Position numbers and translations under genes: made by a program. The notes under the pieces are model-generated. The model saw nothing but the letters and a program-made list of their open reading frames with translations, was not told the DNA's origin and did not search any database. Shown one piece after another: positions 2,993 through 54,131 of a stretch of 64,000 bases of DNA (position 1 is the stretch's first letter; each line of letters begins with the position of its first letter). Source of the DNA: Proteromonas lacertae (lineage: Eukaryota); NCBI GenBank assembly GCA_002245135.1, contig NGBS01000583.1, forward strand, positions 310,001-374,000, in the 5' to 3' direction.

Positions 2993-3538
2993 TATTTATA
3001 CGATATTGTTCATAATCATTAGATCTATAACAAATCAACAATTATAAACATAAAAACAATCATACGACATAAAAACTGGAGCTGCACCATTTCCTTGTTC
3101 AATATATGGATCTCTTATTCTTGCATCATTACAATATCTACTTGCAGGATTTGAAACTGGATTAAGTTCATTAATAAATTCCTCATCTATAAAAGTATCT
3201 TCATTTCGTCTTGAATTATTAGTCTTATATCTCTTTGAACTGACTAAAAATTGTGATTTGATTGTTCCATCACTATTAAACTTTTGAGAATCTTTCATTT
3301 TGGCTCTAAAGTTATAAGGAAGTGATCCACTCCTTCTGACTGCACTAGAATCAGGATGATGTTCTCCCCACTATTTTATTAACAGAAAAATATACTTTGT
3401 AAGGATGACCAGCTGGGTTTACATTCTCTTTAAAGTTTTTCTTCAATTCTTTGTAAAAATGTTTCTATATCGTTTCAACATATTGATCTATACTTTTACA
3501 TCCAATTCAAAGTTTTTTTCATGATATGAATTACTCAT
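2950..3538 (-). CDS. Hypothetical protein (MSNSYHEKNFELDVKKHFY...); may be the N-terminal part of the FAM161-like gene
   Basis: Three GT-AG introns restore the frame. It ends at TGA 2950-2952 unless a 25-nt intron at 2977-3001 is spliced. Confidence 0.55.
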
Positions 3539-16438: not shown

Positions 16439-16891
16439 CTATAAAGAGATAAATGGATTTTAAAATTCAAAAAAAATAGTCGTTTTCTTCAAACAAGAAT
16501 CAAACATAATTTTGTTTCTTGATTTATTTCTTCCTACAAATAATATTTTATTTATTTAATATTTTTTATATGTTCAATACAGTATCTGCTCTCCATATAT
16601 ATATAATTTAATCCATATATTAGATAAATTTACTACTATATGGTTTCTCATTGACCTGTTTAGATTAAAATGTACTAATAGTATTATTCGTATTTTATTT
16701 ACTCCAATTATTATTATTTGTGCAGATGTAAAGCAAAATTATTGTTCATATTGAAATGTTCATTATTTTAGGAGTATTTTATGATTACATTATGTAATCT
16801 GTATGGATATGATGATAAATGTTTTAATATCTTCAAGATTCTTTTGACAGAATGAAATAAAACACAAAGAATCTCTTAGATTCTCTATTTA

Positions 16892-19800
16892 ATGTTAATC
16901 ATAAGTACATTATTATTTGCAATTTTTGTCTCAGTTACTGTAGCTGAAAAAGGTTATGTTAATGTTGGTATAATAGAGAGAAATAGAAGTGATGCATTCA
17001 TTTCAAATTATGTGAAGAAGTCTAATTTAAACAACTTTTTAGGTTTTAAAATGAATCTATATAGACTAAACAATAAAAGAATATTAAGAGAACAGCCAAT
17101 AAATTACGAGTTAATAATTAATGGCCATTCAGAAGAAAAAGATATATGGTATAAGTATTGTCAATTAAGAAACACTCTTTACATCAGAAATTATGATTAT
17201 TATGAAGAAATTCCAGATTACTGTGAAAATAATGTCTTAATACCTCCCACACTCTCTACTATGGTAAATCAAAGTATAAATATATTGTATTATTGTTATA
17301 GCTATTAAATACTACTTAAATATAGATAAAACATATTCGTTCATGTTAATCACTGAATCACACAACCAACAAATTCAATAAATGGAATTATTTGCTTATA
17401 TTCTCCAGAAATATCGATAAAAATATCAAATATATCATCTATTGATACTTTAAATATTCAATCTAACACAATTTTTCTGATTATCTCCAAATATTCATTA
17501 ATTAAGGATATAAACCCAATTTTGTTTATTACATTATCTTATACAAATGTACATGTTGTTATTTTAAAGAATAATCACCATTTAATATCTCAATTAATGT
17601 CATTGAATAATCCTTTTTCTGTATTTTATTCCAGACCATCATATGAGATGCAATCCAACTATTCTGAAGATGATAATGGTATTCTATTTGCAATACAAGT
17701 TTACCTTTATTCATTAAGAAATACAAAGCCAAATAATATATTGTCATTTTTAAGAAGTAAATCCAATCACAATATATCCAATATTAATGTTACGGTTGAT
17801 AATTGTAATAATATAATAGTTCCAATAACAGTAGAACCAGTAATATCATCATTAGCTATTCCATCATCAAAAGATAAACATGTTAATATGATAGAGAAAA
17901 GTAATGATATTTCAGTGTCAATTGGTGTAATTTATACTAAAGATAAATCTATATATAAACTATCATCAGCTCAGTATCGGTTAGTAAAAGCATCTTTAGA
18001 ATATATGATTAATAACACCACTCTATTTTCATTTAAAGTTAATGTATACTATGAATGGTCAAAAAGCTTGATTGATGTTCGAAAAGCAACAGAAAGATTG
18101 ATAGATTCTCATTCTGTTGATATAATCATTGGTGGAAGTGTTGAACAAGAGAAAGATGATATTATGTATATTATAAATAAGATAGATGAAGAAGTAAGGC
18201 CTTATTTATTTTATACTGGAATGATATATAAACCAGCTTGTGATTCATATTTATTTATTTCAACAGCAACTGTAAATCAATATATCACGTCATTACTACA
18301 TTTTTCATCAATTTTAAATGACCAACTGATTTATATATTCTCTCTAGCAAATGATGACTCTAACTCTGTTTATAATCATTTGTTAAGTGAGGTGTTTGAT
18401 GGATTATCATTATCATATGTTAATCATAACTTCAACAATATAAATGATCATATTGAAGCAATCAATAAAGAGTGTAAATATTCAATAAACTGTTTGATTA
18501 TTATACCAACAAGTATGAATCAAATAAACCAAAAGATAACTGAACAGTTAATAAATGAGAATGTTACAGTTATGACGAATATCAAAATATTGCATTTTGA
18601 TGATGATGTATTATTTGATGATAGTTTCTCACAGAATGATTTAGAAGGTCAATATTTCATTACATCATATTATTACCCATATAAAACTGAGGCAAATAGT
18701 TTACCATTTTATTATAAGCCTTTTTTAGATTTCAAATCTGATGATATTAATTCCTATGTTTTACCAACTACCTTTCTTAGTGTGTTATATGTTACTTTAG
18801 GTATTAGTTATTCCACTTCAAATAATATGACTTACATATCTTCATCATTATATAGAGAACCAATCGCATTTCTTCATAAAACAGTTTATTTAGAAAGATC
18901 ACATTCTACAGCAATGCCTTTTTATCTAATACAAATCCAGAATGAAGAGAAAATAATAATAAATGAATTAACTTCACCTTTATTACCAAATCCATACAGT
19001 CCTTATGATAGTAATAATTGGAAAATGGTATGTCAATTTGATTATGTTTATGATAAATGGAATGATGATTTTATATTATATTTTATATTCTTCATAATGA
19101 ATTTTAAAAAGTCTTTAGAAAATTCATTGAAATTAATACTACCATTACAAATCCATGTTGATGAAATAAATCTGAATATGAAAAATAAAAGATATCAATT
19201 CATTGTAATTGATTCAAATAGAAATGAAAGTTTTATTGAAAATTTAATAAGAAAATATGAGCCAATATCAATTATAGGTTGTTTAGATGAAAGAGAATGT
19301 TATAAAAAAGTATCAAATATAGCAGAAAAGACAAAGACAATATTCTTTTATCCAGATACTATGTATGATAATGAATGCTCTGAATGGGTTATTAATTCTG
19401 GATTGCATTTTCCAACTTACATCAAATTTTTATTGGATTATATTGAAGGATTATCATACACTAATTTAATCATTATACAAAACACAAAGTATATATATAT
19501 AGTTTTATATATATTTATAATGTAGTATTTTACCGTTAGATAATAGTATAATAAAACTATTACAGAATAAAGAACTGAATTACACTACATCATTTTATCT
19601 AGATCATGATGAAACAAATGCATTACCTATTCAAATTAGAACAGCTTTAATATCAATAAATCATTATGTGCAAAATACTGATCTTAATTACATTGTTCTT
19701 TTTGCAGGAAATGAAGCATCAACCAAACAATTAGTTCTTCAGTTAAAGAAGTATAAAATACCATTATCACGTCTATTATTTGTGTTTCTAAACATCAATG

Positions 19801-21461
19801 AACAATGGCTTACAGTAGAAGAAAGACAATCAATTACAAGACATTTGTTGGTAACATATGATGATGGTTTAATAATGTCACACCATTATGGACAAAGTTT
19901 ATTAAACAAAATAATGGCAAAGTATTCTACTTGTAATGAAACTTTTTCTAATGGTATAATTCCTATATTCAATTCATTCATGATTACATATGAGTCTATG
20001 ATATATTTGAACGAGAATTATGAATCATGCAAAATAACAAATCATCTTATAAGAAGTGCAATGTATGAAATAAAATATGATGGTCCTGTAGGAGAAATGC
20101 ATGTTGAATACAATAATATACTCTCTCAGCCATTTCATGTAACAACATTTTCTTTATTAGGAAAAAAGATTAGTTTATATCCAGGTAGTTTATCATTACT
20201 AATACCAAAACCTATAGTTGATGGTTGTTATTATGGTCCAAAATATGAATATCAGAAGTTTGACAATAATTTGGTTATTGGATGTGTAATATCTACAATT
20301 GCAACAATATTATTCTGTATTGGAGTGATTATATTCGTATATATTAACCGTAAGAATCCAATTATAACATCGACAAGTCCAACATTCCTTTATTGTACAT
20401 TGGGTGGATGTATTTATACTTCAATAGCAGCAGCAATGTTTGCAATAGAACCAACACCAAGCAATTATATTTGTACAATAAGAATATGGTTATTAGCTCT
20501 AGGTGTTACTTTTATATTTGCAGTAATATTTACAAAGACTTGGAGAATCAATAAATTGTTTAATAATACGAAGATGATGAAATTGAATTTATCAAATAAA
20601 CTACTAATGAAAATTATTTTATATTTTATGACAGCTGTAGTATGTTTCTTAGTGTTCTTAACATTTGTCAATGAAAGCAAGTATATTTATATTCTATTTA
20701 TATAATATTCCACAATAGATTTTCACCAGAAATTAATGAAGAAAATAGTACAATTGAAATACATTATTATACATCACAATGTACAAATCCACCAGTTCAA
20801 GAGTATATATATATATATATATATATTTGTGATTATTAATGTTATAGTACAATGTTATTCTTATTCTTCATCATTATTCTGTTATATGGAATGTATGTAT
20901 CTTGGAAAGCAAGAAATGCATTTGATAAATACAATGAATCTGGAAGTATATCAATGAGTATTGGTGTTGTGTTTTTCTTCAGTGTAATTATAGTTCCACT
21001 GAATATAATAATAACAGATATGAACTCTTTATTGACAATTAGAGTGTTTGGAATTGAATCTGCAATTGTGTCGTTGATATTGTTGTTATTTGGACGTATA
21101 TTATAACTATTTGTTATTACTCATAGCTAAATATGCAAAGATATATTTGGTTGTAGATAATGAAAGTAGAAGTGAATCTGGAGGAAGTATAAGAAATAGT
21201 GGAAGTTTAAGGTCTTTAAGTCAAAAAGGAAATACTAGTGGAGTATATAAACTAGTACCAAATCAACCAACAAGATTAAGTACAATTAAAAGCAGTCATA
21301 GAAATCAATCATGTTTAGGAGCTAATTTGGAAAGAATTGATAAAAGTTCAAGAATGGACTCAGATGGAACATGTGGTAATGCAAAATGTTGCGTATTAAG
21401 TCCAGTTTCAAGAGGATCTCATCATCCATTAAGTCCAACTCCACATGCTATATCTGAATAA
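16892..21461 (+). CDS. Class C GPCR-like receptor: signal peptide, about 3 type-1 periplasmic-binding-like domains, 7TM
   Basis: RKNPIITSTSPTFL, CTIRIWL, FTKTWRI, YNES and FGPKY are 7tm_3 motifs; IIGC...FFYPDTMYDNECS is UrtA/AmiC-like. One unresolved frame break at about 17360-17381. Confidence 0.8.
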
Positions 21462-37126: not shown

Positions 37127-39495
37127 TTACTCACGTACCTCAACAGCAAATATCTTTATCTTAGTACTATCAAACAAAGGAATGATTTGGTTTCTAATGT
37201 AAATAATTCCCCATAAATATTGTGTGAACCATTGATTTGTGTATTGATTGGGTGAATAACGTTGTATTTCAATACCATGTACCGGTAAAATACCAACTAA
37301 CGTAATTCCATTTAAATATTCTACAACAGCTTCTTCATCGATAATTCCACCTGCCTTTGTACAAAGTTCATCTACTTGAGGTAATACATAATTCAAAGCT
37401 TTCAGAATCTATAAAATAGTGAAATCAGTATAAATATACAATTTCAAAAGCTTCCATTTCTTGTTTGAATGAATTATACCATTCTTCTGTAATAGCAGTT
37501 CCATTAGCAAACTCTTTTGGTTTGAATTGCTCATATGCCATATTCAAATAATTCGATAATTTATGAAACAACCCTCTTCTTACTAATATTGAGTAGAGCA
37601 CATGCATATTACCTTCATAATGGAAAATCAATAAATTAGCCATTGTTTTAATCAACAATGCTAATTTATGACATTCAAATTCATTTGCTAAAATACTGTT
37701 TTTCTTTGATAATATTTCAAATAAAGTTAACAGTTTTTCAGATGCAAATAATGACAGTTTCATAGTATAAGAAGAGATATTGAATAATATTGTAATGAAA
37801 ATACTATGTAATGGTTTGATTTCTTCCATTGATTCTGTTACCATTTTGTAAATAATAATAATCACATAATCACTAAAACTACCAGTAAAAAAAAATGGAA
37901 ATTAAAATAAAACTATTTAAATAATATAACATATATATGCGTAAAAAAAAAGGATATTAAAATGAAGGAATATCCAACGGTAATCTCTTTTTAAAAGGTT
38001 TATTCAAATTCACAGCATATTCTCTTTCACTTGATAACAACATCACAATAAAAGTAACCATATGAACTAAACCAACTTTATGATGGTTACTTCTCCCTTC
38101 ACACATTAAATAAAACAACGGTGTAGTATAATCAACAGCATAATGACTAGAAATATAACTTAGAAAGTCATTATTTGTATCTAATAATCTCCATAAGAAT
38201 AAAAGTATTTCTTGTTCACATAAGATAGTATGTTGAGAACCTGGAAGTATTGTGTTATTACTATCAATTATTGAGTTTAATATTCTCTGAATACTATTAT
38301 AATAATATTATATATATATACTTTGATGCAATCAGTGTAAAATCATTCTTTTTATCCATATCATTGATATATTTATAATATATATTATCATTTATATTAT
38401 CAGGTCGATAATTCAATAATACATCCATCAAATGTAGACAAGCTACAACTAAATCTTCATCAGCTGTACCTCCAATTGTACTGAAATAAGGAATACCATA
38501 ACCACAAGGATCAAATGAACATAGTATATTTACTATACTATAGAAGAAAGTGTGTGTTAATGAAGTATCTTTTGATGTAAGATATTGAGACATTGTATTA
38601 TCACATTTAATCTATAATAATATAATATATATATACATCGTATAATTCACTACTACAACAAGTAACTAATAATTTCAACAATTCTATTCGATTATTATTG
38701 ATTTCAGTTGCACTTGTATTAGGAAATGTATCAGGAACATTATCATTGAGTTGGGATGTATAATATTCAACATATTGTGGTAATACTATTCCACCTCTTT
38801 GAGTAAACCATATTAACATTGTATCCACTATGTCTGGACTGATTTTGTTGATTATCTCATTACATCTCATTGAATGTATATAACAGTTACCAGGTATCTA
38901 AGATTTTTATAATAACATATATTAATACAGTAAAACCAGGTAAGAACAAACATGACATTAGAGAATTTACTAATCTTTGACCAAATGATATTTTTATCTC
39001 TGTTTGATTATCTCCTTCTGCTTCTTCCACTTCTTCTTTTTTCTACATGCTATATATAATGATAAAATACTTTTGGATATTGAGGAGTGTAGAAATTATT
39101 GGCTAAAAAGTTATCTTCATCTGTTTCCAATAGAAATGGTATTGTTCGAGTTAGAACTCTAATTGCATTTATTAACTTTTTAAAATTTAATGAAGTTGGA
39201 GATGAGACAGCTTCTTCGACAATCTTAAGACACTAGCAAAAATAAAATTAATATTCAATACTATATTTAATAATGTAACAAGATTTTCTGGATGAGATGC
39301 TCTTATATCTCTTGTACTGCAAGGTTGGATGGAAGAAAAAAGTTCCTTCACATAATAAACTCAATAATATACTTCACAGGTAGTAGGTGTTTCGAATAAC
39401 TCATTCCAAAATGCGTGCTCTGAAGCATCTATGGTTTTCTTAGATAGATCAATTATTTTGTGAATTAATTGAACTTTGCTTTCACTTGATCCCAT
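37127..39495 (-). CDS. HID1: HID1/Ecm30-family Golgi protein
   Basis: MGSSESK (myristoylation-like start), NNNRIELLKLL, FDPCGYGIPY, LLSSEREYAVNLNKPF, GITLVGILPVHGIEIQRY, YLWGIIY. Confidence 0.93.
37885..37957 (-). other. U12-type AT-AC intron (73 nt) in HID1
   Basis: Consensus donor ATATCCTTT and AC end; removal gives PLDIPSFYGSFSDY, colinear with HID1. Confidence 0.88.
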
Positions 39496-39619: not shown

Positions 39620-42600
39620 ATGTTTAATTCGAACTATTTATTAGTATTTATATTATGGATGTGCTATATTGGCCGGTCATTACAAAATGATATAACTATA
39701 TTTTACTCTAGTGATTATTCAATTACTTGTCCTTCAGACGCTGATATAAGTTTTACTTGTGAACAAGTTGATTCGGATTTACTGTCAAAGGTTAAAGGTT
39801 TATCTACTACTCCACCCATCATATTAGTGTTGCTTTATAGTAATGTAAATAGTGATGTTATTTCTGAGATAAGTGGTAATAGTGTAGTTTATTTTTCGTT
39901 TATTTTCGTGCCACAACAAACTGTTGTAGATAATCGTTTAACCCTTTCAGTTCCTTGTGTTACAGATGATATTATTTATTGTATATTTATATATGTTAAA
40001 TTTATATAGCTATTGATTATTTCCTATTACAGGAAAAGTACAAATTTGTTTTATTCGAAACTGGACTTGATCAATCAGTTCAAGATTCAGTTAAATCATA
40101 TTGTGATGCACTTAGTGTTAAAATAACCATATTAGATAATATAGGTAGTATTAATTGTGTAGATTGTGTTGTAATATTTTACAAATATGATGGTAGTGTC
40201 AGTATACCATCAGCTCCTACTTATTCAGTGGTATTTATTAATCAACCATCATTACCACCTTCATTTCCTTATTATTACTTATCATTAACAAATAAGTCAA
40301 AGAATCAATATGATGTAATTATGTATAATATTATACATATAATTATTAATTAATATGATAATAGAGAAGATTTTATAAAAGAGTGGAAAAAATCATTGAC
40401 AGATGGAAGTAGTGTGTTGGTGGGTAAATACTTTACTCCTTTACAATTATTCAATAGTACTGTGATTAATTTCATAAATAAGAAAGTAATTTATGATAAA
40501 TACATTATGAAATATGAATCTACATCATCATCTACAGTAGTTGAAGCATCTCACACTAGTTACTATAATCCAGTGAGAGTGTATATAAATCAATACACGA
40601 AATATGAACTAAACAATTATTATGTTGGGTTTATATGTGAATCAACATATAATAAGAAAGAATATTTATCATATCTTGTTACATTAAAGTATTTTAATTA
40701 TCGTTCGAATAATGAAAAGAGAGTTTCTAAATTGAGGTTATTGTTCAGGAAATATAGTAATATTGATGAATTAAAGACAATATTTGAGTCAAATCAAATT
40801 GGTTCATTTATTATATTTGATGATTATAACAGAATCACTGAAATAGCTAAAAGTATATTATATATATTTTTTGTATTAGAATATCCAAAATTATTTTTCA
40901 TAACAGATTCAGAAGCATTGCCAAAAGAAGAATGCAATTCAAATGTTTATCATTCTTCAGTATTAAGATTTCATGATTTCATTTATTCAAATGAGGATCC
41001 ACTTCATCCTCCTGATGTTGTTATTTATAATGAATATGATATGTATATTAAAATATACTTATTAAATACTTATAGAGATAATATTAAAATATATCAAATG
41101 GTATGTGGCACAATGTTTTGTAAGTCACAATTTATTACATATGAACAAGCGATGAAAGATACAACTGGTAGTTTTAATGTTACAGATAATGGTAAATTGC
41201 TATTATTATTAAATAATGAAGATCAAATAATCAAATTTCATGATAAATTAGGAGGTAATCCAAAGGATATTGAAGTTTACCATACAAGAGTAGTTAGAAG
41301 TAAAAAAGAATATGTATGCTATAGTTATAGTTTTTATTTTATTAGTTGAAAGGCCATATTGCTATTGTACCATTTATTGTTTATGGTTATCATGATTATT
41401 TTAAAGATATAACAGGAGATAGTCAAGCAGAGTATTATTATGGTAGAGAATATACAATATTAAGAATAGTGAAGAATATATATGAAGTATATATATATAT
41501 ATATATATTAATGCTATTATTTTTATAATAGAATTTTCTTACAACAAATGAAACAAGTTATGAATCAATAAGAGAGTATATATACATATATATTATGTTT
41601 TAGAAAGTTAATATCTCAAATGTACTGTAAACCAAATTATTGTTTATTTCCTCTAATTCATTTTACTGTATGTTTAATAGTATGTAATACATTGTTTAGA
41701 TTGATAAAACTACATCTAATATAGTACAAGGAGATAAAGTTCCAGTGTATTCTTCTTCTGGTTGGTTGGATTGTTACTGTTATGATGATAATAATTATGT
41801 CACACTTGGAATAATGTATGAGAATAAAGAATATTATAAACATAAAATACTTCCCAGTTTAAGTAGTATTACTGTTGAAAATACTTTATTATTACCAATT
41901 ATTAATGTAAAATTTTCAACAACAGAAATAAATGAAACAATGAATGTGATGTATGAGAAATTTGATGTAAGAATATTTCTTGTTTCAGTAGAATATCTTT
42001 TTTCTTTTTTATAAAATATTTTTAAATGATTATATTTTCTTTAATAAAATATACAGATATTGTTAGTTATTATGAAGAATCTTTCAAAAGTTGGTTGAAC
42101 AATAAGGATGTCATTTTTATTGATATAAAAACTACGAATGTGAAGGATTGTGATTATACTAATTTGCTTTATTATTCAATTCCATCTATGTTATTATCGT
42201 ATTATAATCCATTAATGTTTTATAATTACACTTTATATTTGATATATGATGAGTATTTTTATCATTATTATTATATTTTATAGTATATCTAATGCTGTTT
42301 ACAAGCAATATATTGAAGAAATAAAACAGTTAGGTTTATCATATACAGGAATAGAATATAAAACTTTATCTACAAGTATACTAGGTGATGCAGCAAAAAC
42401 AAGGTATTTTTACATTTTAAATGATAATAAATTGTCTGATTTTTACGAATTTGTATCAACTCATCCAACTTATATTTTTATATCATGTAAAAATGAATTT
42501 CCTGTTACCTCAATGAAATTGCCAAATCTTCTTATTCCACAACTTATTCCTGATATATTTATATCAGATAGACAGATTGAGTTGTTAATATATTACAATT

Positions 42601-45600
42601 CACCAGTGGATGTTACATTGAAACTATATTCTGCTATGAAGAATTATTTATATGGTAGAAAGTTATATGGTAATAAAATTGAAAGGATATATGAATATAT
42701 GAAATTTTCCTTGTTAGAAAGTTATTATTGTATATATATATATATATATAAATATAATTGTATTTTAGTCTACCAATTTACTTATGTTAATAATTTTGTT
42801 ACAGATTATACTCTTTCAAGAGTATCATCATTAGGAATTGCCTTTGAGAAGATCGAGAATAAAGATTTGGCTTGTAGCTATTATAATTCAAATTATGGTG
42901 AAATGAATATTGGAATTATATATTACATATTCGATCAAAATGATGACTTAGATGCTATTAATTATATGTTGAGTATTTTGTATGATATCAATATAAATAT
43001 TCCAGTTAATTTGTTTTTTGTATAAATAATTATGTTATATATTTTTTTTATTAATAGAAACTACAACCAGTGAAATGTGCAAATTCTGCATGTGTATCTG
43101 ATCTATTAGGAAGTGATGATAGTACTTCAAATTTTTACATTCTTTCTTTATCATTTTCTTATACCAGATCCAATAGTTATTTGTTTAAGGTGAAGAATTT
43201 AAATGAACCATCATGCACCAATAATATGTATTTATTTGTTCTATATAATGTATAGAATTGATTTTTCTCCATCAAGTGCACATACATTTGATTATATATT
43301 TAAGAACGCTATAAAGACACATGCTAATTATATCATATTCTATTCTACAGATTCATATATGGATACTATTAAGGCATTGATAAAGAAGTACAAATATGAA
43401 CCTATAAATTATATTGAAGTTACTGGTAAACATTACTCTGTAATATTGAATTTTGCATTAGTAAACTTACCAAAAGGTGGATACATTTTGGATTATAGCA
43501 ATATTGAAGATATGAAGAAGTATATTGAACAAATTGAATCGTTAGTTACAAAATATAGTGATTATAAACACCTTATAATGAATTATACATCTAATCTTGA
43601 TATAGAGTTTAAGTCTCAACATCAATATTCATATTATATTAGTCCATTTCATGTGAAAGATAAAATACTTAGGCATACAAAGAGAATATCATCTTTACTA
43701 TCAATTGCTGCAATAGATGCTATATATGAATGCTTAAAAATGTTTGTTTTTGATAATAAAAGAGTTTATAATCACCTTATTAATAACAATGTTAATACTG
43801 ATATTGGTATTATAAAAATCAATACAATAAATCATATTGAATTAGGAGTATCAATCAGTTTAGGAGATAAGATAATTATTGATATAACTGAACCACTATC
43901 AAATGCTAGGTTTTATTATATGTTTGATGAATATGATTATGGAGGTTTATTTAATGTAAAAGTTATTGAAATTGGTTTTATACATAATATATATGGTGAT
44001 GAAGTTGATCGGGAATTTATACATTTAGATTTTGAAACTTCAATTATTTCTAGATTGAATCATGATTATAAGTCAGAGTTAGTGATAAAACCGAAGATAT
44101 TTTTAATTCATAGTATTTCTGAATTAGAATTTAAAGCAAACGATCCACTGTATTATCTTGCTGGAAAATATCTTTTTATTTATTAGTATATATATCAAAT
44201 CTAAATTGTTTCTTTAACTTATGTTTTTTTTTACTACTGCTATTAGTGAGTTAGAAACTGTGTTTAATGAGAAGAGCAATAGAGTATTATATTTTACAGG
44301 CCAATATGTTGAAGATGAATGCTCATCAAATATACTATTTGCTGGAGGTAATTATGTTTCAATTGTATTTTATCTTATTTATTTGTTTCTGTTCTAATAG
44401 ATCAGTAGTATTACAGATTTTCTTAGATCATTTCAGGATGGTTCAATTAAAATATATTTTTCATCAAATCAACCCTCTCTAAGAGAGTATGCACATTTAG
44501 TATATAATACATTCCACAACTACAACTATGATGTTTCTATATCATCTTATTCAGTTGATATGAATGATGTTTCATCTGCTGCAAACATGTTTTGTTATCG
44601 TGTTGTTTCGTCAAGTGATGAATTGGTGTTTATCAGTTTTCTTATAGCTGAAGAACAAAAACATTTCTTTGAAGAATTATCAACTACGTCATGTAATCTC
44701 TTTACTGTTTTATCAGTAACTCCAAGCTATGAAAAACTATATGATTTTAAGGTAGTTCCTAATACATATTTCATTGGTAGATCATCTCCAGATGAACAGA
44801 CATATAATGATATATATTTAACTATAGAGTTTGTTTTGTATTTATTACACAATATTACTTATAAATTAACACCAGAAGAAATGAAATTAATGACAAGTCA
44901 AAACTTTATTGAAATGAATTATCTTAAACATATTGTTATAAATGATGATGAATGGTATTTTGAAAATAATAATAATGTTCATTTACCAATTAGTTATTAT
45001 TATTATGATGGAAAGAATTATTCTTTATACAATAAACCACTTATTAGTTTCACACCATATAATAATTCAAGCCCTTATGTTTGTTTACCATTTGGTGGAG
45101 AAAAATTTGAAGATAATTCTATTGATATTCCAGTGTTTTTCAATTTATCAGGTGATAATGTAATAAGAGAAAGATTGATTTTAGATGCAATTTCAACAGG
45201 TTTTGATTATCTTAATAAAGTTCAAAATGGAATAGCCAAACGAAGAGTGAGACATAAGTTGTATGACATTTCAAAACTTAATGAATATTATGAAAATCAT
45301 AAGAATGAACAAATTGTGTTGTTTGGTGGTGATACATATGACGATTTTAATACTATTTATAGGTTAATGGAAGGTAAAAATAATATTTTGTATTTAGAAA
45401 CATCTGATATGGTTGGTAGAAGTTGTTATAATAACGTTATCTTTACAGGATTAAGATTACCAGTTTATATTGAATCTTTAATGTCAGAATTTATATATAG
45501 AAAATATACTTCCGTAGTAGCTTATATTGATGAATCAACATATCCAGTTTCTGATTTTAATAATATTATGGAAAAAGCTTATGCTAATGTTGTGAATATA

Positions 45601-48600
45601 ATGTTTATTAAAGAGGTTAAAAGTACGGAAGATATAGATGAAGCAATAGAAAATGATTTAGATAGAATATCCTATTCAGTAGATGATCCAGATAGAGTAT
45701 TGATTTTATTGGCATTAAATCCAATTTATATTAAAAGATTTATTATGTCGTTTAGTAACTATTATTACAGAATAGCTATCCTGAGATCTAGTATAAATGA
45801 ACTTTCATTGATTATGGATACTAGTTATTTAAAAGACGTTATTTTTATATCAAATAATATAAATAACCAAGATAGTTTTTATGATAAACAGATAAGAAAG
45901 TATAAAGTGAATGGATTATATTCTAATCAATTTGTTTCTACAATAGAAGCAATTGGAGTGTTGTATTTATCAATCAATCAATGTAAAGGAAAAATTGATA
46001 TTGAATGTATGAAAGAACAGATTCCTGGAATGAAAATTGGATCTCCAGAAGGAATAATTGTTGGAACAAGTTCATTTTATTTTGAAAAACATTTGTCAAT
46101 TGTTTCAATGAAAGATGATGGTTTTGATGTTTTAGTTGATAGTAGTGAATTATCAAGACCATTTATTTATTCATTCGATTTGAAGGATTATTCATTATCT
46201 AGATGTCAAAATGAAGTTATTAAAGGTAAGAGGAAAGAATTTAATGTACTTATTTTATTAGATATATCAGGAACAAATTCATTGGGTCAATTGGAGTTAT
46301 ATCGAACTTACATTATTGCATTTGATAGAATTAATAAGGAGAAGAATGAAAATGACTTTTACTATTACTACAAGTTTTTCAATTCTGAATCAAATGCAAT
46401 TTTGTGTAAAGATAATGTTCAATCTATACTGCAACAACATCATTTTGATGTAATATTCTTTTCTTCATCTTCATCATGTAGAAAACAGTTGAATACAGTT
46501 GAAGAAGCTAAAACCATACCAATATTTGTAGTAACGAATAACGATGGAGAAGAGTGTAAAGAGAATGTATTTTATGGAGGATATACGCCTTATGTAGCTG
46601 TTTCAATTCTATCTTCGTATATTGTGACAGAATATCAGAATTATGAAGCTGTTATGATTATTGAAGGAATAAACAATTGGAATTTGATAAGTGAATTGAT
46701 GAAAAGAACAATTCCTTCATATATTATTCATCTTTCTGCAGCAATTAATGTTCCTAATGTCACAGTTAGTCAAGCATTTACAATTGCAGAAGAACAATTC
46801 AATAAACATCCACATAAGAATAGTTTAGTTATATTTTTAGCAAGTGAATATTATATTAATGAATATGCGAAAGTTGCAAGTGCAGATCCTAATTATAGTG
46901 AAAGTAGAACTGATACAGAAAAAGTGTTATTTTGTTTATGGTGTCAAGTGTTGAAACTATATTCTTTCCCTTTTACTCATGTTGATTATGTGGCAGAATT
47001 TGAATATCCAGAAGATGTAACTGATGATATAAGAGACTATTTCAAATCAATAGTACAATATAGTGATAATTATTTAAGTGACAAATCATTCTTTGCATTT
47101 GGTATTTTATATTATTGGTCTGATATTGTTTCTAAACTTGGTAATAGTCAATTATCTTCAATTCAGAAGGTTATATACAATGAAGATTATAATTTTCATG
47201 GGTTTAGAATCAGATTTGGATCAAATAATCGTCAAATAAAAGCAGTTTCATTAATTAGGTCATTTTCTGGATTAAGAATAAGAGTAGTAAAACATTCTTT
47301 TCAGAAAATAGTACTTCCATATCTAAAAGAGTATTATTATAATTCTAAATACTATCAATGTGATTGGGTTAGTAAAAAAAGTGAACATTTCTTAGTAGAT
47401 TCAAAACATATTGGTTTATTCTGTTCATATGGTGATTATTATACAAAAGCAATTGTTAGTTCATGTGAATTGCTGTTAGTATATATTAACTATGTTAATA
47501 ATAGAGAAGGAGGTATTCTAGGTAGATGGATTATTCCTGTGTATTTGTCATATGGATCAGTTGATTTAGACGCATTTGATATGACAATTAAAAGTCACAG
47601 TATTGATATTATTATTGGAACGTATGCTCCTTCTGGTAAAATAAATGCAGATGAATATTTGAGAGAGAATAAGATACTATTTATACAAACAGGTCATAAT
47701 TATGGAGATAGTTGTTCACCATATAAATTTCATACTGGTCCAACATTATCACAATATATGAGTCCATTAATGTTATTGTTAAGTCAGAAAGATTATCATA
47801 TTGTCGTTGTTGGAAATGATGAATATTATCATCAGTTAATAACAAATTTCTTTAAAAACACACTAATGTCTGTAGGAATGGAATTATCTGGAGATTTAAT
47901 ATATGATATTAATAATCAATATATTAATGGATCAATAAATGAATTAATGAAGAAATGCGTTAAACCATGTGCAATTGTGAGTCACTTGTTAGGTGATTAT
48001 AATGATTTGCTTTTTGATTATTTATATCGTAATAATTTCACTACTAAATTCGGATATCAACCTTTTTCTATTGGATTAACTGAAACGATTTACAAGAGCA
48101 ATAGAGATATATACAATGGAACAATTATTATACAATCATTTTTTGAATTGATTCAATCAGAATTTATAGATTTTTCTACTATTCTTTCACAGATTGAAAA
48201 TGAAGCAGATTATATTGATACTATGGTTCCTACTTATTTTACATACCAGTTAATAGGTGGTTTTATAGCATATAAGAAAGCTGTCCAAGAATTATCTGAT
48301 TTTAATACAACTATTCTTACGAGATATATAACTGATGCATTTAGTACAATGAATATTGATGAAACTCATTATGCTTCATTAAAGCTATATGGAATTCAAA
48401 TCTTTAGTGATGATTATGAAAAAGTTGTTTATAATGTTAAATTGTCTGACTCTCCCAAGCCTGGTTATGTAATCAATATAGCAAACAATAAACCACCATT
48501 ACCTACAGTATGTAATGTTAAAGAAAATAATATGACATTTACAAAGCTAATTATAGTAACTGATAATTCATTTACATCTGCAACATCAAATTTGAATAAT

Positions 48601-51045
48601 ATGATAATAATTAATGCCTTATTTGAACAGCTTAAAAGGTCAAGAAATATAACATCATTTGCTTTAAGAGTAATCAATTATTCAAATACTGCTCATTTTA
48701 AGTCACAATTAATAAGTATTCAAGAACATATTAGTGAATATGCTGCAATATTTGGATGTAAAACTATCAGTTGTTATAATGTCATTAATCAGTACTTGGG
48801 AAAAACAGATTTACCATTCTATTATTTAGGTTATTCATTTGAAGAATATGTGAATATTAATTCATATTTTATGGCACCTACTCCATATCAATTAATTGAA
48901 TTTACACTGAATTACATAAAATATTTGAAGAATCAATTGATAATGGACACTCCGACAGTAACAATGATATATGATGTTAATTATCCCAAAATATTAGATT
49001 TATTTAGAGATGAAGCTAAGCATTATAATTATGAACTAGTCAATGAATGTCAAGTTAATCCAGATGATGAATTAACACCACAATTTCTTGATTGTCTAAC
49101 AGCATGGGGTGATACAAACATCTTTCCAATTCATGTGTTATATCTACTACCAAATGGTTATGATGATTTCTATACTCTTCATCTTAATAATCCACAATTT
49201 TCTTCATTATTTAATTATTATTTCTTAACCTATGATGGAGATCAAATATCACCATTACAATTAGCAATATTTGATCATTATTTTATTATCCATTCTCAGA
49301 CTAACAGTTATGAACATGCAAAATCCATTTCTTACTTATATTTATTGCAATCAACATTTGGTACATTATGGAGTAATTCATATTTCAAATCTGGATTTTA
49401 TGCTGCAGTAAATATGTATGGTGAAGTATTGGATAATGCAATGTCATATATAAAAGAGTTTCCATCAGTAGTTGAAGTTCAATCAATGACTCAATTAATG
49501 AAATTCAGTACTATATTTGGAGAATTAGTCCCAACAAAATCGAATTATTTTGTAAGAACCCTTTGTGCTTCACAGGTTGATATAAATTCAAATGATTATG
49601 TGAATGTATATAGACTAAAGAATTATTCAATCCAACCATTTGATGTATTACCAACTGGATTTGATATACCAGTTACTATATTGAAATATCCATCTGCTAC
49701 TCAAGGTTTAGTATATGGTTTTGCAGGAGAGACAACATTTATGATATTGCTATTTATGTATTTGTTATATAAACAAAGAAGAAATCCAATAATGAGAAAA
49801 GATTCAATGAATTTATTGCAAACATCAATGATTACTTTACTATTTGCACCTCTTACTGCTATATTCTTTGTAATAGAACCAAACGAAAAGAATTTCATCT
49901 GTATGCTTAGAATTGCTATGCTTTGTGTCACTTTAATGTTTCAAGTTTCAATTGTGTTTATGAAGGCTTACAGAGTGAAGAAATTATTGTTTAATCCAAC
50001 AAGAGAAAAAGTTGCAATAAGTGATGGTGTTATATTTAGAAATGTGTTTTTAGTAATGACAGTTGAAGTGATATATTTGATATTATGGGGGTTTCTAGAA
50101 CCATCAGAATTGAATTATACAAAAGATGAATCTGAAAGTCCATTAGAAATTCAAAAATATCCGATTTGTAGAACACCTTATTTGATGTTTGGTATTCAAT
50201 GTGCAGGAATTGGATTATACATAATATGGGGTGTATATAACATCTTTAAATTAAGACATGTTGGAAGAGATATTATGAATTCTACTAGTTTAGGATGGTC
50301 TGCATTTGTATTTGCAATTGTTGCCATATTATTTGGACCTTTAGCTTTTATATTAGGAAAAGAGCCAAAGATATTGATAATTGTTCAAGGTTTAGCTATT
50401 ATTGTAACAACACATGTGTTTTTATTCTCATACATCGGTAGTAAGTTGCTATTATTATGGAAACATGATGCAGAACAAGATATATCTGATAGTGAAGATG
50501 AAGGATTAACAACACAAGCTCCATTAAAAGCAGGAGGTGGTAAAGGTAGCTATATTAACACAGGTTTATTCAATACAGGCTTAAGTGCAGTAAATACTAG
50601 AACTAATAATAATAATAAGACAAAAATAGTACCAGAATATACTCAAATGTATGGATATGTTATTTCAAGACCAGGTAGACAGAATGGAAGAGGTTTATCT
50701 CCAGCTATGGTTGGTTCTCCCGTTGTTGGACCTTCTCCAATGATTGATGGAAGATTACCATCTGGTGCAGGAACATCCAATCAACAGTCACCTGCTTTAC
50801 CATCACCTCCTAGTAATGCTGGACTTGGTAAAGGATTAGATACCAATATGTTGATGAAGAAATTGGAAAATTTGCAGTTTTCTCCTGATTCTACAACTGT
50901 AGGAGGTGATTCTATATCATTTGGGCAGATGAAGCCAGCAAGGAGTAGAAATATTCCTGGATCAATAAATGGTACTGTATTAACAGAAACAAGTAGCCAA
51001 GCATCTTATGCATCATTTAACATGGGTGGAGCTAAAAATACTTAA
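39620..51045 (+). CDS. Giant class C GPCR-like receptor (about 3,600 aa) with about 9 tandem UrtA/AmiC-like binding domains
   Basis: About 14 introns join all ORFs in frame. Signal peptide; repeats of about 1.1 kb, most with a CxxN motif; 7TM motifs RRNPIMR, CMLRI, FMKAYRV; Ser/Pro/Gly-rich tail. Confidence 0.82.
41993..42054 (+). other. U12-type AT-AC intron (62 nt)
   Basis: Donor ATATCTTT, branch TTTTCTTTAAT, ends ATAC; phase-2 join GA|A restores the frame. Confidence 0.8.
44168..44234 (+). other. U12-type AT-AC intron (67 nt; the end could be 44237)
   Basis: Donor ATATCTTT, branch TTTCTTTAAC, AC end; phase-2 join restores the frame. Confidence 0.82.
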
Positions 51046-51185
51046 TTATATGTTTGTGTATGTTTTTTACAGAATATTCTTGGGAATTTCTTGAAATGTC
51101 CATAATTTTCGAGAATTTTTTAAATAGGATTTAATTCAATACTTAGTATTCTAGAAATATCTAATTTTTGATAAACTTAAACCTA

Positions 51186-52195
51186 ATGAAATACACATCA
51201 ATTTTTGTTATTGTCTGTTTAATTGGTCTTGGTATAACTTTTCTATTCATCTTGAAATAGCTTTTTCAGCACCAAACTCAGATGATTTATCTCAAGCATA
51301 TAACGCCGCTCAATCAGCAGCACTAGATGAAGGTCTATTGATGCGTCTTAATAAAAAATACCCCAGTGTTGATGGTAGAGCTGTTTTCACTTGTATGCCT
51401 GATAGAGGACTTTACACATTTCCAGATGCTTTATTAGCTACAGGAGCTTTGAAAGAAGTTTTAGATGTATTTATTGTATTTTTATCTTATAATTAGACAA
51501 ACAAATTGTTGGTAGGAGGATTACAATTCAACACAACTGATGGTGATTATTTCCAAGATCCTCCAGTTGGATTTTGGCCAGAATATCTTGATGCAGTTGT
51601 TGCTAAATTAAACGAATTCTATAGACCATTAGGTACTGACGCAAAGATTCAAATAGTAAGAAAATATTACAAATCATCAGATGCTACACTTGATGGATTA
51701 GAAAATGGTGAAGTTTATCTTACTGAACCATATTATGTTCTTGGTGCATTTTACAAGGATCAACCAAGAATAGAATCAACTCGTTTAGCTTGCACTTCTA
51801 TGGGATATGAAAGCAATTTTGTAGTTGCTGATGCTTCAGGCGTTAGTACAACTGCTGAATTATATGACTACATTGAGAAGAAAGCAACCAATAAAAAAGT
51901 AGTTACAATGTCAACTGGTGATTTTTATGCTGCTGAATCTTTATTACCACCAAACACTGACAATTTCGTTGTTTCAAGTTATGATGATGTTATTAAAGCA
52001 GTGAAAGATGGAACAGCAGCAGCTGGACTAACTTCTGGAATTATTACAGGAGATGGAATACACACATTTAAAAGTGGAATTATATCTCCAAGAGGATCAA
52101 TGTTTTTGAAACAGAGTCCTTGTTTGCCAAAAGCTGCATCTACAGCAACAGTCGCTTTAGCATTGCTCATTTTTACTCTATTATTAATATTGTAG
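51186..52195 (+). CDS. Secreted, probably GPI-anchored type-2 (family 3) solute-binding-protein-like protein
   Basis: Signal peptide MKYTSIFVIVCLIGLAFS; LKEVLDTNKLLVG, PVGFWPEYL, DVIKAVKDGTAAAG; hydrophobic C-terminus; two introns. Confidence 0.7.
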
Positions 52196-52252: not shown

Positions 52253-54131
52253 TTATTTATTTCTAATAATTATATTATTTATATAAACAACTTCATTTCC
52301 ATTACCTTCTGAAGAGTAATCATAAAAATCACCTCTAATCAATACTTTCTCAAGGTTATTTAATAGCAATATCCAGTCTTCTTCTGTAGTAGCTTGACCT
52401 GTTATTTCATTAATCCATAAATCTGTTTCCCACAGTGGAATACTGAAATAAGTCCAATTACCTGTTAATTCTGTAATTTCCGATTTGTAACTGAATCTAA
52501 ATGGCAAAGCTGTTGAATTATTTATTCCTCCTTCCAATATAACGAATCTTTCTGGATTTCTTGGAGAACCATATGCTTTCCCTCTCATCATTTTAAACTG
52601 TAAATATCCTCTATAATAATCTGTTTTATTACCTTCATATTCTTCATTTGCTCTGAAATACCATCTATTTTAAGAATAATCATCAATATATATATAATAA
52701 TATACATATTCTCTTTTAGTGTTGCATTTACTGGTTTAATCTTTTCTATTTCTATATCTGCTTTATATCCAATCTCTAATTCATCATTACTAGAAACATC
52801 AATTACCATATCACTACTTTCATCTTGTATTTGTGCTCTATAGAACAAATATAGATTACTATTCACGTTGGAATAATGATAATTATATTTCATATCATTA
52901 AAAATATCATTCAAAGAAAGAGAAGATTTAAACAATTTAAAATCTTCAATTTGCACCCACAAATTGACCATAAGTATCACAAAATACAAATTCACATTTT
53001 CCATTTTGTCCTGAACCAATAATCAATGAAACTGGTGAATGAAATACATAACTAGAACGATAAGGTCCTCCAGTATACACTTCATGACCATCAATATAGA
53101 ATAATACTTTACCATCTCCACTTCTCCATGATAAACCAATATGATGCCATTCATTGTCAACTATATTAATATCTGTTTTTATACCAACTTTATAATTATC
53201 ATTATTATTATTCTATTACATTAATATTAATGATAATATATATATATACAATAGATTCACCAACTATTATACTGAGGGAATAAGGATTGTAGAGAATAAA
53301 TTCATTTGAAATAACCTCTGAACTTGATATTGATACAATAACAGCATCGTCATTAACATCTTCATCACATTTGATCCACATTGTGATTGATAGTATTCTT
53401 GGATCGATTTCAAAATCAGTTGTTAATATATAACTATCAATATCACTAAATCTAAAATATCCAAAATCTGGTGATTTACTAATCATATAAAATGAAATAA
53501 ATAAAATAAAATACATTACTGGATTTTCTTTAAAATTATCTTCTTTTCCTGTAATTTTATCCCACATAAAGAAACCATGAGAATCAACAAATAGAGATTC
53601 GTCACCATTATTACCATTAACACTCCAACCTTGTGTTTCATTGCTTATTCCATAATATAGTGAAGATGATGTTTCTGTTATAATATCTCCTTGTCCGTAT
53701 GATCTGATTAATAAATTTGCTTTAGAAATTGTTCCAATATCACATTCGAAATTGTCTGATGTAGCAGATATAATAGTGAGGTTGAATACAACATCTTCTC
53801 TACTAAAATCTATAAAATTACCTAATTGCCTGAATTTCGTATATTTCATAATTAGAATTGGGTAAAAATGCTAGTTCATAATCGTTATTAACCTCTAAAA
53901 CAGATCGACTATAACCTTGAATATTGAACATAACTGTTGTGGTAGATAGTATTCCTAAGTATAGATAGTAACAATGAACTTTATACCTCCTTCTCTGGTC
54001 AAAGAAATTCTGATCTTTTCATCTGCTAGTGTTGATAAAAACAAATTGCGATCAAATGATACTGAACCACATCTTAGATCAGCCAAAGAATATGACAATA
54101 AAATACCAAACAGCAGAAGAGATATTGACAT
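52253..54131 (-). CDS. Secreted protein: Calx-beta-like, LamG/pentraxin and laminin-B (domain IV)-like domains
   Basis: Signal peptide; LSITMWIK and DNEWHHIGLSWRSGDGKVLFYIDG (LamG/pentraxin); WYFRA...GNK...LLNNLEKVLIRGDFY (laminin B). One apparent +1 frame break at about 52954. Confidence 0.7.

What the first reader, a model, noticed from the sequence alone, without database searches (positions are those of the whole stretch)
39620..51045. Giant class C GPCR with about nine tandem UrtA/AmiC-like Venus-flytrap domains
Seen: a signal peptide, repeats starting near 39680, 40615, 41795, 42900, 43960, 45115, 46235, 47400 and 48540, then a 7TM domain. Most repeats carry EECNSNVY, DECSSNILFAG, GRSCYNNVIFTG, GEECKENVFYGG or GDSCSPYKFHTG, and some carry NLSG/DISG and GGILGR, as in bacterial urea/amide-binding proteins (SLSG, GGVLGR, YEG.E.S.NVFYTG). 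Established: characterised class C GPCRs have one flytrap domain. Inference: a receptor family built by serial duplication of a probably laterally acquired bacterial binding domain, acting as a multi-ligand sensor or long antenna for urea, amides or amino acids in a gut protist. Best candidate for an undescribed system in this window.
Basis: partly seen in the sequence, partly recalled or inferred. Interest (0 to 1): 0.9.

Follow-up and report, generated by a model that had tools for sequence, protein, structure and literature searches.

The report
Giant receptor with nine flytrap modules
A single-celled eukaryote, likely a Blastocystis-type gut protist, carries a predicted 3,600-amino-acid surface receptor whose outer part is a chain of six clear and likely nine copies of a bacterial urea-binding module; look-alike receptors from other sequence collections keep the urea-gripping residues and would be urea sensors, whereas this copy has lost them and likely senses something else.

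Summary
The observation largely holds. Window 39620-51045 (+) models as one 3,618-aa gene with 15 short introns, two of them AT-AC (U12-type). It encodes a signal peptide, about 3,150 aa of tandem type-1 periplasmic-binding-protein units, and a GABA-B-like class C 7TM domain (Pfam 7tm_3). Units 5-9 are firm and unit 4 is good. Units 1-3 are decayed and have only weak support (motif position; a partial fold of an orthologue). No RNA was available to prove one transcript. Three uninterrupted ORFs from other collections (3,745-4,080 aa) show the same plan of nine units plus 7tm_3. Of their 27 units, 20 keep all eight tested urea-binding residues of UrtA, and the membrane-proximal unit is degenerate in all three. 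Sequence and structure searches rank UrtA and AmiC above mGluR/GABA-B flytraps. G-protein coupling is untested. My ten paper searches found no such architecture. Verdict: new variant of class C GPCR, interest 0.75.

The parts
39620..39679 (+). ATG and likely signal peptide (about 20 aa)
   Evidence: Hydrophobic N-terminus read by eye from the model; no signal-peptide predictor was run. Relatives P0079 and P0080 also begin with hydrophobic leaders.
39680..40614 (+). Unit 1, shortened (288 aa), likely a decayed type-1 PBP
   Evidence: No sequence signal. Orthologue P0082 is 56% identical over model residues 118-386; its model (pLDDT 45.5) matches PBP-I C-lobes, best Z 9.8.
40615..41794 (+). Unit 2, likely a decayed UrtA-like PBP
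   Evidence: HHalign E 1.4e-3, score 29 vs shuffle maximum 17; Cys..Asn motif in place; SW z 0.3.
41795..42899 (+). Unit 3, possibly a decayed PBP
   Evidence: Motif in place; SW z 3.6, borderline; HHalign at control level; no usable Atlas hit.
42900..43952 (+). Unit 4, UrtA-like PBP (degenerate)
   Evidence: HMM E 1.8e-5; HHalign E 1e-4; SW z 11.
43953..45108 (+). Unit 5, UrtA-like PBP
   Evidence: HMM 21 bits, E 7.5e-9; SW z 16.5.
45109..46230 (+). Unit 6, UrtA-like PBP
   Evidence: HMM 87.6 bits.
46225..47391 (+). Unit 7, UrtA-like PBP
   Evidence: HMM 107.6 bits; AlphaFold model matches UrtA 7S6F, Z 33.8, rmsd 3.8, 375 aligned.
47392..48540 (+). Unit 8, UrtA-like PBP
   Evidence: HMM 138.8 bits; PBP-I secondary structure in the model.
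48541..49660 (+). Unit 9, membrane-proximal PBP with a degenerate pocket
   Evidence: HMM 39.2 bits; 1 of 8 pocket residues, as in unit 9 of P0011, P0079 and P0080.
49687..50445 (+). Class C 7TM domain, GABA-B-like
   Evidence: 7tm_3 92.8 bits; best PDB hits GABA-B1/B2, E 2e-5; 230 of 256 residues identical in orthologue P0002.
50446..51045 (+). Ser/Pro/Gly-rich cytoplasmic tail (about 195 aa) and TAA stop
   Evidence: 146 of 191 identical in P0002.
51051..51058 (+). TGTTTGTG, a near-match to the Blastocystis polyadenylation motif, 5 nt after the stop
   Evidence: motif described in PMC5608401 passages.
41993..42054 (+). AT-AC (U12-type) intron, 62 nt
   Evidence: One of only 2 matches to a U12 pattern on both strands of the window (0.6 expected); restores frame.
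44168..44234 (+). AT-AC (U12-type) intron, 67 nt
   Evidence: The second of the 2 matches; restores frame into the UrtA-like motif of unit 5.
39981..44400 (+). Thirteen GT-AG introns: 39981-40009, 40323-40364, 40853-40879, 41043-41075, 41314-41345, 41487-41531, 41576-41603, 41668-41699, 42253-42283, 42730-42768, 43020-43057, 43228-43255, 44365-44400
   Evidence: Three (40853, 41043, 42730) are in frame without a stop and so are optional. P0002 is contiguous across 44365-44400; the P0082 ORF has an insertion at the 40323 intron position and ends at the 40853 position.

Best explanation
This is a predicted single-gene class C receptor with a GABA-B-like 7TM domain, whose outer part is a chain of six clear and likely nine UrtA-derived flytrap units, and which likely senses small solutes other than urea and would pass the signal to the membrane domain through a pocket-less last unit. 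Shown: 7TM family, fold and UrtA ancestry of units 4-9, loss of the urea pocket here, and intact pockets in nine-unit relatives. Inferred history: a eukaryote took up a UrtA-type gene (closest sampled kin are picocyanobacterial), fused it to a class C 7TM and multiplied it long ago, since units within one relative are only about 35-55% identical. The ancestral form is likely a multivalent urea sensor. In the AT-rich lineage of this window the family expanded into paralogues and the pockets diverged unit by unit, most strongly at the far end. Inferred mechanics: two Cys residues, one after strand 4 and one in the C-terminal tail, likely form a disulfide that pins each tail to its own N-lobe. 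The tail runs straight into the first strand of the next unit, so the chain would be a semi-rigid arm. Closing of a cleft would bend the arm or shift its packing in a dimer, and unit 9 would relay this to TM1. Coupling to a G protein is assumed from family membership and is untested.
For: 7tm_3 and Peripla_BP_5 in one ORF. One-frame gene model with uniform introns and two U12 introns exactly where GT-AG splicing fails. Single ORFs with nine units plus 7tm_3: P0011, P0079 and P0080. 20 of their 27 units keep 8 of 8 urea residues defined in PMC10392092, unit 9 keeps 1 of 8 in all three, and the window units keep 0-2. None of the 46 units from AT-rich relatives keeps more than 4. Both Cys are kept in window units 6-8 and in most relatives' units. 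The AlphaFold model of u7-u9 has three PBP-I domains, pTM 0.64, and the u7 tail strand runs into u8 strand 1; best structural match is UrtA. The 20 well-kept eukaryote-type units form one clade inside the UrtA family (SH-aLRT 98). The 7TM is 90% identical in an orthologue whose units are 66-75% identical, so the gene is under selection.
Against: No RNA shows one transcript. Units 1-3 score at or near control level by sequence. Cleft positions of the window units are not clearly more conserved than the rest between the window and P0002 (u6 4 of 8, u7 6 of 8, u8 7 of 8), so a new ligand pocket is not shown. The acidic TM6 residue of the class C ionic lock (motif recalled) is Ser here, opposite Asp of GABA-B1, and the TM7 Pro is Ser. 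The window shows no positional match to the nine-unit relatives (p 0.13-0.42), so its count of nine may be independent. The sister relation to picocyanobacteria has only 88 support with thin bacterial sampling.
Confidence: 0.55

Rival explanations
1. In this lineage the units no longer bind small ligands. The ectodomain is a long structural stalk or adhesion arm that contacts bacteria, mucus or other cells and signals by force or clustering.
For: Pocket residues are lost in all nine units, and decay and shortening grow toward the N-terminus. Structural Cys pairs are kept while clefts differ between paralogues. The ectodomain has 21 N-glycosylation sequons.
Against: Units 6-9 keep the full two-lobed fold and 66-75% identity with an orthologue. 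Relatives keep intact pockets in most units, so the array began as a ligand binder.
Confidence: 0.22
2. The locus is two genes or yields two transcripts: a secreted N-terminal protein (units 1-3 or 1-4) and a receptor with five or six units.
For: No RNA support. A TGTTTGTT motif lies at 43741 inside unit 4. Orthologous pieces were found as separate ORFs (P0082 for u1-u2, P0002 for u5-tail). Units 1-3 are weak.
Against: Every stop in the model frame lies in a canonical-looking intron, and 15 of 16 exons favour the model frame. Two U12 introns restore frame. No second hydrophobic leader appears in the hydropathy scan. The motif is expected 5.5 times by chance and seen 9 times, and another copy (45078) lies inside the exon that is contiguous in P0002. 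Unit 4 runs into unit 5 within one ORF (43203-44186). Three relatives have nine units in one ORF.
Confidence: 0.12
3. This copy still senses urea or short amides.
For: UrtA and AmiC are the closest solved structures by sequence and fold. Urea is plentiful in the gut (general knowledge).
Against: At most 2 of 8 pocket residues per unit are kept; single mutations at Trp120, Ser122, Gln144, Tyr190 or Asn246 cut or abolish urea binding in UrtA (PMC10392092 passages).
Confidence: 0.08

Closest known systems
GABA-B receptor and other class C GPCRs with one ANF flytrap (mGluR, CaSR, T1R, Dictyostelium GrlE)
   Same: 7tm_3 domain, best PDB hits GABA-B1/B2; type-1 PBP ectodomain; no nine-cysteine domain, as in GABA-B.
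   Different: Six to nine tandem units instead of one; the units are UrtA-derived, with no ANF_receptor hit in P0001 at E up to 1. Ectodomain about 3,150 aa against 31-621 aa in human receptors (PMC3251606 passage).
Non-metazoan class C GPCRs with bacterial binding domains: Dictyostelium Grl (BMP), chytrid and gut-fungal receptors (SBP type II, OpuAC, SBP_bac_1)
   Same: A bacterial solute-binding domain fused to a class C 7TM, probably several independent fusions (PMC5168858, PMC3251606, PMC3971589, PMC10445921 passages).
   Different: Other donor families; reported N-termini reach 1,600-1,667 aa. The passages read mention no UrtA (Peripla_BP_5) units and no long tandem array; figures and most supplements were not seen.
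UrtA urea-binding protein (TIGR03407; PDB 7S6E, 7S6F, 8HIC) and AmiC (1PEA)
   Same: Fold (Z 33.8, rmsd 3.8, 375 aligned). The Cys motif and C-terminal Cys tail are shared with picocyanobacterial UrtA and missing from the Paenibacillus, Azospirillum, Klebsiella and Ensifer proteins sampled. Relatives keep the whole pocket.
   Different: Stand-alone bacterial transport or sensor proteins. The window's units are 10-18% identical to UrtA and lack the pocket.
Entamoeba EhVFT and Plasmodium PfVFT1
   Same: Bacterial-type flytrap domains on protist surfaces (PMC12965686 passages; a PfVFT1-like gene lies just downstream here).
   Different: EhVFT is GPI-anchored with no 7TM; neither is reported as a long tandem array in what I read.

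Membership tests
Class C (glutamate) GPCR | 7tm_3 domain above the Pfam cut-off | tested here: met
   92.8 bits vs 33.5, profile 3-251 of 251; GABA-B best in PDB; Atlas top clusters are 7tm_3 (0.97).
Class C (glutamate) GPCR | Cys at the top of TM3 and Cys in ECL2; Lys in TM3 (motifs recalled) | tested here: met
   Aligned Cys pair and TM3 Lys in the window, P0002, P0011, P0079 and P0080.
Class C (glutamate) GPCR | Acidic TM6 partner of the ionic lock and TM7 Pro-Lys motif (recalled) | tested here: inconclusive
   Window has Ser at both the acid and the Pro position, Lys kept; the three nine-unit relatives keep Glu and two keep Pro. A variable feature in the family.
Class C (glutamate) GPCR | Large N-terminal PBP-type ectodomain | tested here: met
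Class C (glutamate) GPCR | Constitutive dimer | not tested
   No complex prediction was run.
Class C (glutamate) GPCR | Couples to a heterotrimeric G protein; G-protein genes in the genome | not testable with these tools
   No whole genome is held.
mGluR/CaSR/T1R or GABA-B subfamily | A single ANF_receptor flytrap (with NCD3G in mGluR/CaSR/T1R) | tested here: not met
   No ANF_receptor or NCD3G hit in P0001; several Peripla_BP_5-type units instead.
UrtA urea-binding protein (TIGR03407) | Model score above 492.75 bits | tested here: not met
   57.4 bits for P0001; the relatives total 2,892-3,608 bits over 9-10 stretches.
UrtA urea-binding protein (TIGR03407) | Pocket Trp120, Ser122, Tyr141, Gln144, Glu146, Tyr190, Asn246, Ser274 | tested here: not met
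   0-2 of 8 in each window unit; 8 of 8 in 20 of 27 units of P0011, P0079 and P0080. Columns for units 1-4 are poorly aligned.
Type-1 periplasmic binding protein fold | Two alpha/beta lobes with hinge, units 7-9 | tested here: met
   AlphaFold pLDDT 69, three PBP-I domains by secondary structure; unit 7 aligns to UrtA at Z 33.8.
Type-1 periplasmic binding protein fold | Same fold in units 1-3 | tested here: inconclusive
   Low-confidence orthologue model for u1, best Z 9.8 to PBP-I C-lobes, no Foldseek hit at E 0.001; u2 and u3 were not folded as whole units.

The most novel reading that the evidence does not exclude
An undescribed family of protist GPCRs uses a rod of about nine UrtA-derived flytraps as its antenna. 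The well-kept members (P0011, P0079, P0080), with five to eight intact urea sites each and a pocket-less relay unit at the membrane, are the first eukaryotic urea-sensing GPCRs and count ligand over many sites. In the gut lineage of this window the family has expanded into many paralogues whose pockets all differ, a combinatorial chemosensory repertoire in which one receptor reads several metabolites.
Probability: 0.4. Interest if true: 0.88.

Novelty: new variant of a known kind. Interest (0 to 1): 0.75.

Why it matters
In the class C GPCRs I know and read about, one flytrap closes on one ligand and a dimer rearranges. A receptor with nine flytraps in series asks how a site up to 3,000 residues from the membrane could signal, and why eight copies of the same pocket are kept in one chain (avidity, a wider dose range, or local ligand capture). 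The relatives give a directly testable ligand, urea, for a eukaryotic GPCR. The degenerate family gives a first handle on how a Blastocystis-like gut protist senses its surroundings. It also records another bacterial donor (UrtA) for GPCR ectodomains.

Tried and rejected
No whole genome is held, so G-alpha, beta and gamma genes were not searched. The RNA-run search listed no RNA holder; read laying was not used. Two scans of metagenome contigs (window 7TM; P0080 7TM) found no locus, so no relative's DNA was seen. The genome-contig scan with P0025 returned only near-identical, almost all picocyanobacterial UrtA (80 kept of 526); 11 of 40 listed plasmid hits were fetched for breadth. A GT-AG-only model gave awkward 61-69-nt introns and lost coding sequence at two places and was replaced by the AT-AC model. 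A reassigned genetic code was considered and dropped: the model reads through under the standard code and ORF 44401-51045 has 2,214 open codons. A pseudogene was rejected (7TM 90% identical in an orthologue). The Atlas gave no usable hit for the unit 3/4 stretch. Foldseek gave no hit at E 0.001 for the P0082 model. The first SW control used unmatched panels and was redone. The FastTree of 117 rows groups the window's units with other long branches, so their exact place is unsure. The IQ-TREE run is the quick tree; it left out all window units, all AT-rich relatives' units and eight degenerate units of P0011, P0079, P0080 and P0081. No mGluR or GABA-B flytrap sequence was in either tree. Three look-ups of earlier findings returned nothing. 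Supplements of PMC5608401: 3 of 33 files were searched for G-protein terms, with no hit. No complex prediction was run.
Full report
Setting. The window is 26% G+C, gene-dense and eukaryotic. Introns in the gene are 27-45 nt, two are AT-AC, and the stop is followed 5 nt later by TGTTTGTG. Blastocystis has introns of about 30 nt, U12-type AT-AC introns and a TGTTTGTT polyadenylation motif (PMC5608401, passages), and low-GC lineages exist (10.1101/2023.11.20.567959, passages). A Blastocystis-like organism is therefore my inference, not a tool result. The motif itself is not clearly enriched here (9 seen, 5.5 expected). No whole genome is held.

Gene model. The last exon is a 2,214-codon ORF (44401-51045) with 7tm_3 (92.8 bits) and Peripla_BP_5 (76.5 bits, 3 stretches). 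Upstream, a Viterbi model with GT-AG introns joined ATG 39620 to it but was awkward at two places. A scan of both strands for a U12 pattern found 2 matches in the whole window (0.6 expected from 30 Markov shuffles, maximum 3). Both lie at those two places, 41993-42054 and 44168-44234, and both restore the frame. The final model has 16 exons and 3,618 aa. All 13 GT-AG introns begin GTAT and end TAG, with GC 8-22%; three are in frame and optional. The model frame beats the five other frames in 15 of 16 exons under a coding model trained without this gene. Orthologues support three junctions: P0002 (73% identical over model residues 1379-3611) runs across 44365-44400, and P0082 (56% over residues 118-386) has an insertion at the 40323 intron and ends at the 40853 intron. 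No RNA evidence was available.

How many units. A profile of 57 sequences without the window, P0002 or P0010 finds units 4-9 (9.9 to 138.8 bits) and not units 1-3; 51 control sequences gave no domain. HHalign with profiles that include the orthologues gives u5-u9 E 1e-6 or better, u4 1e-4, u2 1.4e-3, and u1 and u3 at shuffle level. Matched SW z-scores against 67 repeats are 0.0, 0.3, 3.6, 11.0, 16.5, 43.6, 79.1, 44.5 and 18.5 for u1-u9, while 8 unrelated window proteins gave -1.6 to 3.1. A Cys..Asn pattern, written after seeing the sequence, hits u2, u3, u5, u6 and u7 at 97-107 aa from the unit start, with 1 hit in 12,467 aa of background. AlphaFold on u7-u9 (15 sequences) gave pLDDT 69 and pTM 0.64, with three alpha/beta two-lobed domains. 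Foldseek ranks urea-binding proteins and AmiC in the first ten rows and GABA-B at rank 14. VIA-align gives UrtA Z 33.8, AmiC 32.0 and the best eukaryotic chain 29.8. The P0082 model is poor (pLDDT 45.5; first 100 residues 56-82). Its wide structural search is led by type-1 PBP C-lobes (Z 9.8, rmsd 2.1, 116 aligned), and most of the 50 rows are PBP-I-type folds; Z 7-8 is the tool's background, so this is modest support for u1. So six units are clear and three are likely but decayed.

It is a family. A search of 1.84 billion representatives with u7-u9 gave 38 hits, of which 25 were scanned with Pfam. Twelve are multi-unit fragments from Logan or similar sources; the 11 whose composition I measured are AT-biased like the window; P0013 and P0017 carry 7tm_3 above cut-off and P0016 below. 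P0011 is one 3,745-aa ORF with 9 Peripla_BP_5 stretches and 7tm_3, and it starts mid-unit. Searching with it gave 3 more hits among 2,189 candidates scored: P0079 (4,080 aa, ENA), P0080 (3,909 aa, JGI) and P0081 (EukProt; the accession names Pfiesteria piscicida). P0079 and P0080 have hydrophobic leaders, nine units and 7tm_3; P0081 has UrtA units with ephrin-like repeats and no 7tm_3 hit. The taxa of P0011, P0079 and P0080 are unknown; I infer they are eukaryotic from the 7tm_3 domain. A second gene in the window (16880-21458) has two clear units and 7tm_3.

Ligand pocket. PMC10392092 (passages) names eight conserved urea-pocket residues of Prochlorococcus UrtA, and their numbering matches P0025 exactly. 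Of 27 units in P0011, P0079 and P0080, 20 keep 8 of 8; unit 9 keeps 1 of 8 in all three. The window's units keep 0-2, and none of 46 units from AT-rich relatives keeps more than 4. Two Cys residues, one after strand 4 and one in the C-terminal tail, persist in most units including u6-u8; a disulfide is my inference.

Origin. A profile of u7-u9 with 14 AT-rich relatives only ranks UrtA (E 1e-62 to 1e-53), AmiC (1e-25) and LivJ-type proteins (1e-12 and weaker), with no mGluR, GABA-B or natriuretic-receptor chain among 40 hits to E 1.4. In a quick IQ-TREE of 45 rows, the 20 well-kept eukaryote-type units are one clade (SH-aLRT 98) inside the UrtA family and sister to six picocyanobacterial-type rows (88, not decisive). 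The Cys tail is present in picocyanobacterial UrtA and absent from four other UrtA-like proteins sampled. Window units group with the AT-rich relatives on long branches in a FastTree of 117 rows. Units within one relative are mostly 35-55% identical, so the duplications are old. Same-position units of P0011, P0079 and P0080 resemble each other more than chance (units 1-8: exact p 0.042, 0.006 and 0.0004; with degenerate units dropped: 0.008, 0.19 and 0.002), which suggests an inherited array. The window shows no such signal against them (p 0.13-0.42).

The 7TM. Best solved matches are GABA-B1 and B2 (E 2e-5), and Atlas neighbours are 7tm_3/ANF clusters, commonest in diatoms (0.95-0.97). The TM3 and ECL2 Cys pair and the TM3 Lys are kept; the TM6 acid and TM7 Pro (motifs recalled) are Ser. 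It is 230 of 256 identical in P0002 against 66-75% for units 5-9.

How it likely works. Shown: architecture, fold, ancestry and pocket states. Inferred: the units are joined tail to first strand with almost no linker, forming a semi-rigid arm. Cleft closure would change the arm's shape or dimer packing, and the pocket-less unit 9 would relay this to the 7TM, much as a non-binding flytrap does in GABA-B2 (recalled). The well-kept relatives would sense urea at many sites. This copy likely senses other solutes (0.55), may be an inert or adhesive stalk (0.22), may be split into two transcripts (0.12), or still binds urea or amides (0.08).

What is known. Class C receptors outside animals recruit several bacterial binding domains (BMP, OpuAC, SBP_bac_1, type II SBP), with N-termini up to 1,600-1,667 aa (PMC3251606, PMC5168858, PMC3971589, PMC10445921 and PMC12716839; passages only). 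EhVFT is a GPI-anchored flytrap protein without 7TM (PMC12965686, passages). Ten searches (listings only unless read above) showed no report of a class C GPCR with tandem UrtA-type units. The two Blastocystis genome papers have no 'G protein' in their main text, and the second also lacks 'GPCR' and 'periplasmic'. Figures, most supplements and subscription journals were not seen, and domain-architecture supplements may list such proteins.

Verdict. A real feature and a new variant of class C GPCR. Interest 0.75.

Noticed in passing
window 16880-21458 (+): A second class C GPCR: hydrophobic leader, an unrecognised N-terminal stretch of about 330 aa, two UrtA-like units (about 17900-19058 and 19109-20223) and 7tm_3 (83 bits).
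   Followed up: partly
window 41993-42054 and 44168-44234 (+): Two AT-AC U12-type introns in one gene; the only two matches to the pattern in the window.
   Followed up: yes
window 51155-52195 (+): The gene directly downstream resembles Plasmodium PfVFT1 (PDB 5JKQ, E 2.7e-6) and ends in a hydrophobic, GPI-signal-like tail: another flytrap protein next to the receptor.
   Followed up: partly
window 44365-44400 (+): This intron is absent from orthologue P0002, which reads straight through: an intron gain or loss between close relatives.
   Followed up: partly
protein P0081 (EukProt, Pfiesteria piscicida by its accession): UrtA units (one with 8 of 8 pocket residues) alternate with ephrin-receptor-like Cys repeats before a membrane region with no 7tm_3 hit: the same module on a different receptor type.
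   Followed up: partly
proteins P0029, P0047, P0024, P0032: UrtA-type domains fused to a histidine kinase with receiver (P0029), to a glutaminase (P0047) and to pentapeptide repeats (P0024, P0032).
   Followed up: no
protein P0079, residues about 3051-3152: An insertion of about 100 aa splits unit 8, which still keeps all eight pocket residues.
   Followed up: no
window 43741 and 45078 (+): TGTTTGTT motifs inside coding exons of this gene; probably chance in AT-rich DNA, but 43741 could allow an early 3' end.
   Followed up: partly
window 52256-52669 (-), 37428-38307 (-), 10586-11788 (+): Neighbours: a Laminin_B-domain protein, a Hid1/dymeclin gene divergent from the receptor, and a sulfatase.
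   Followed up: no
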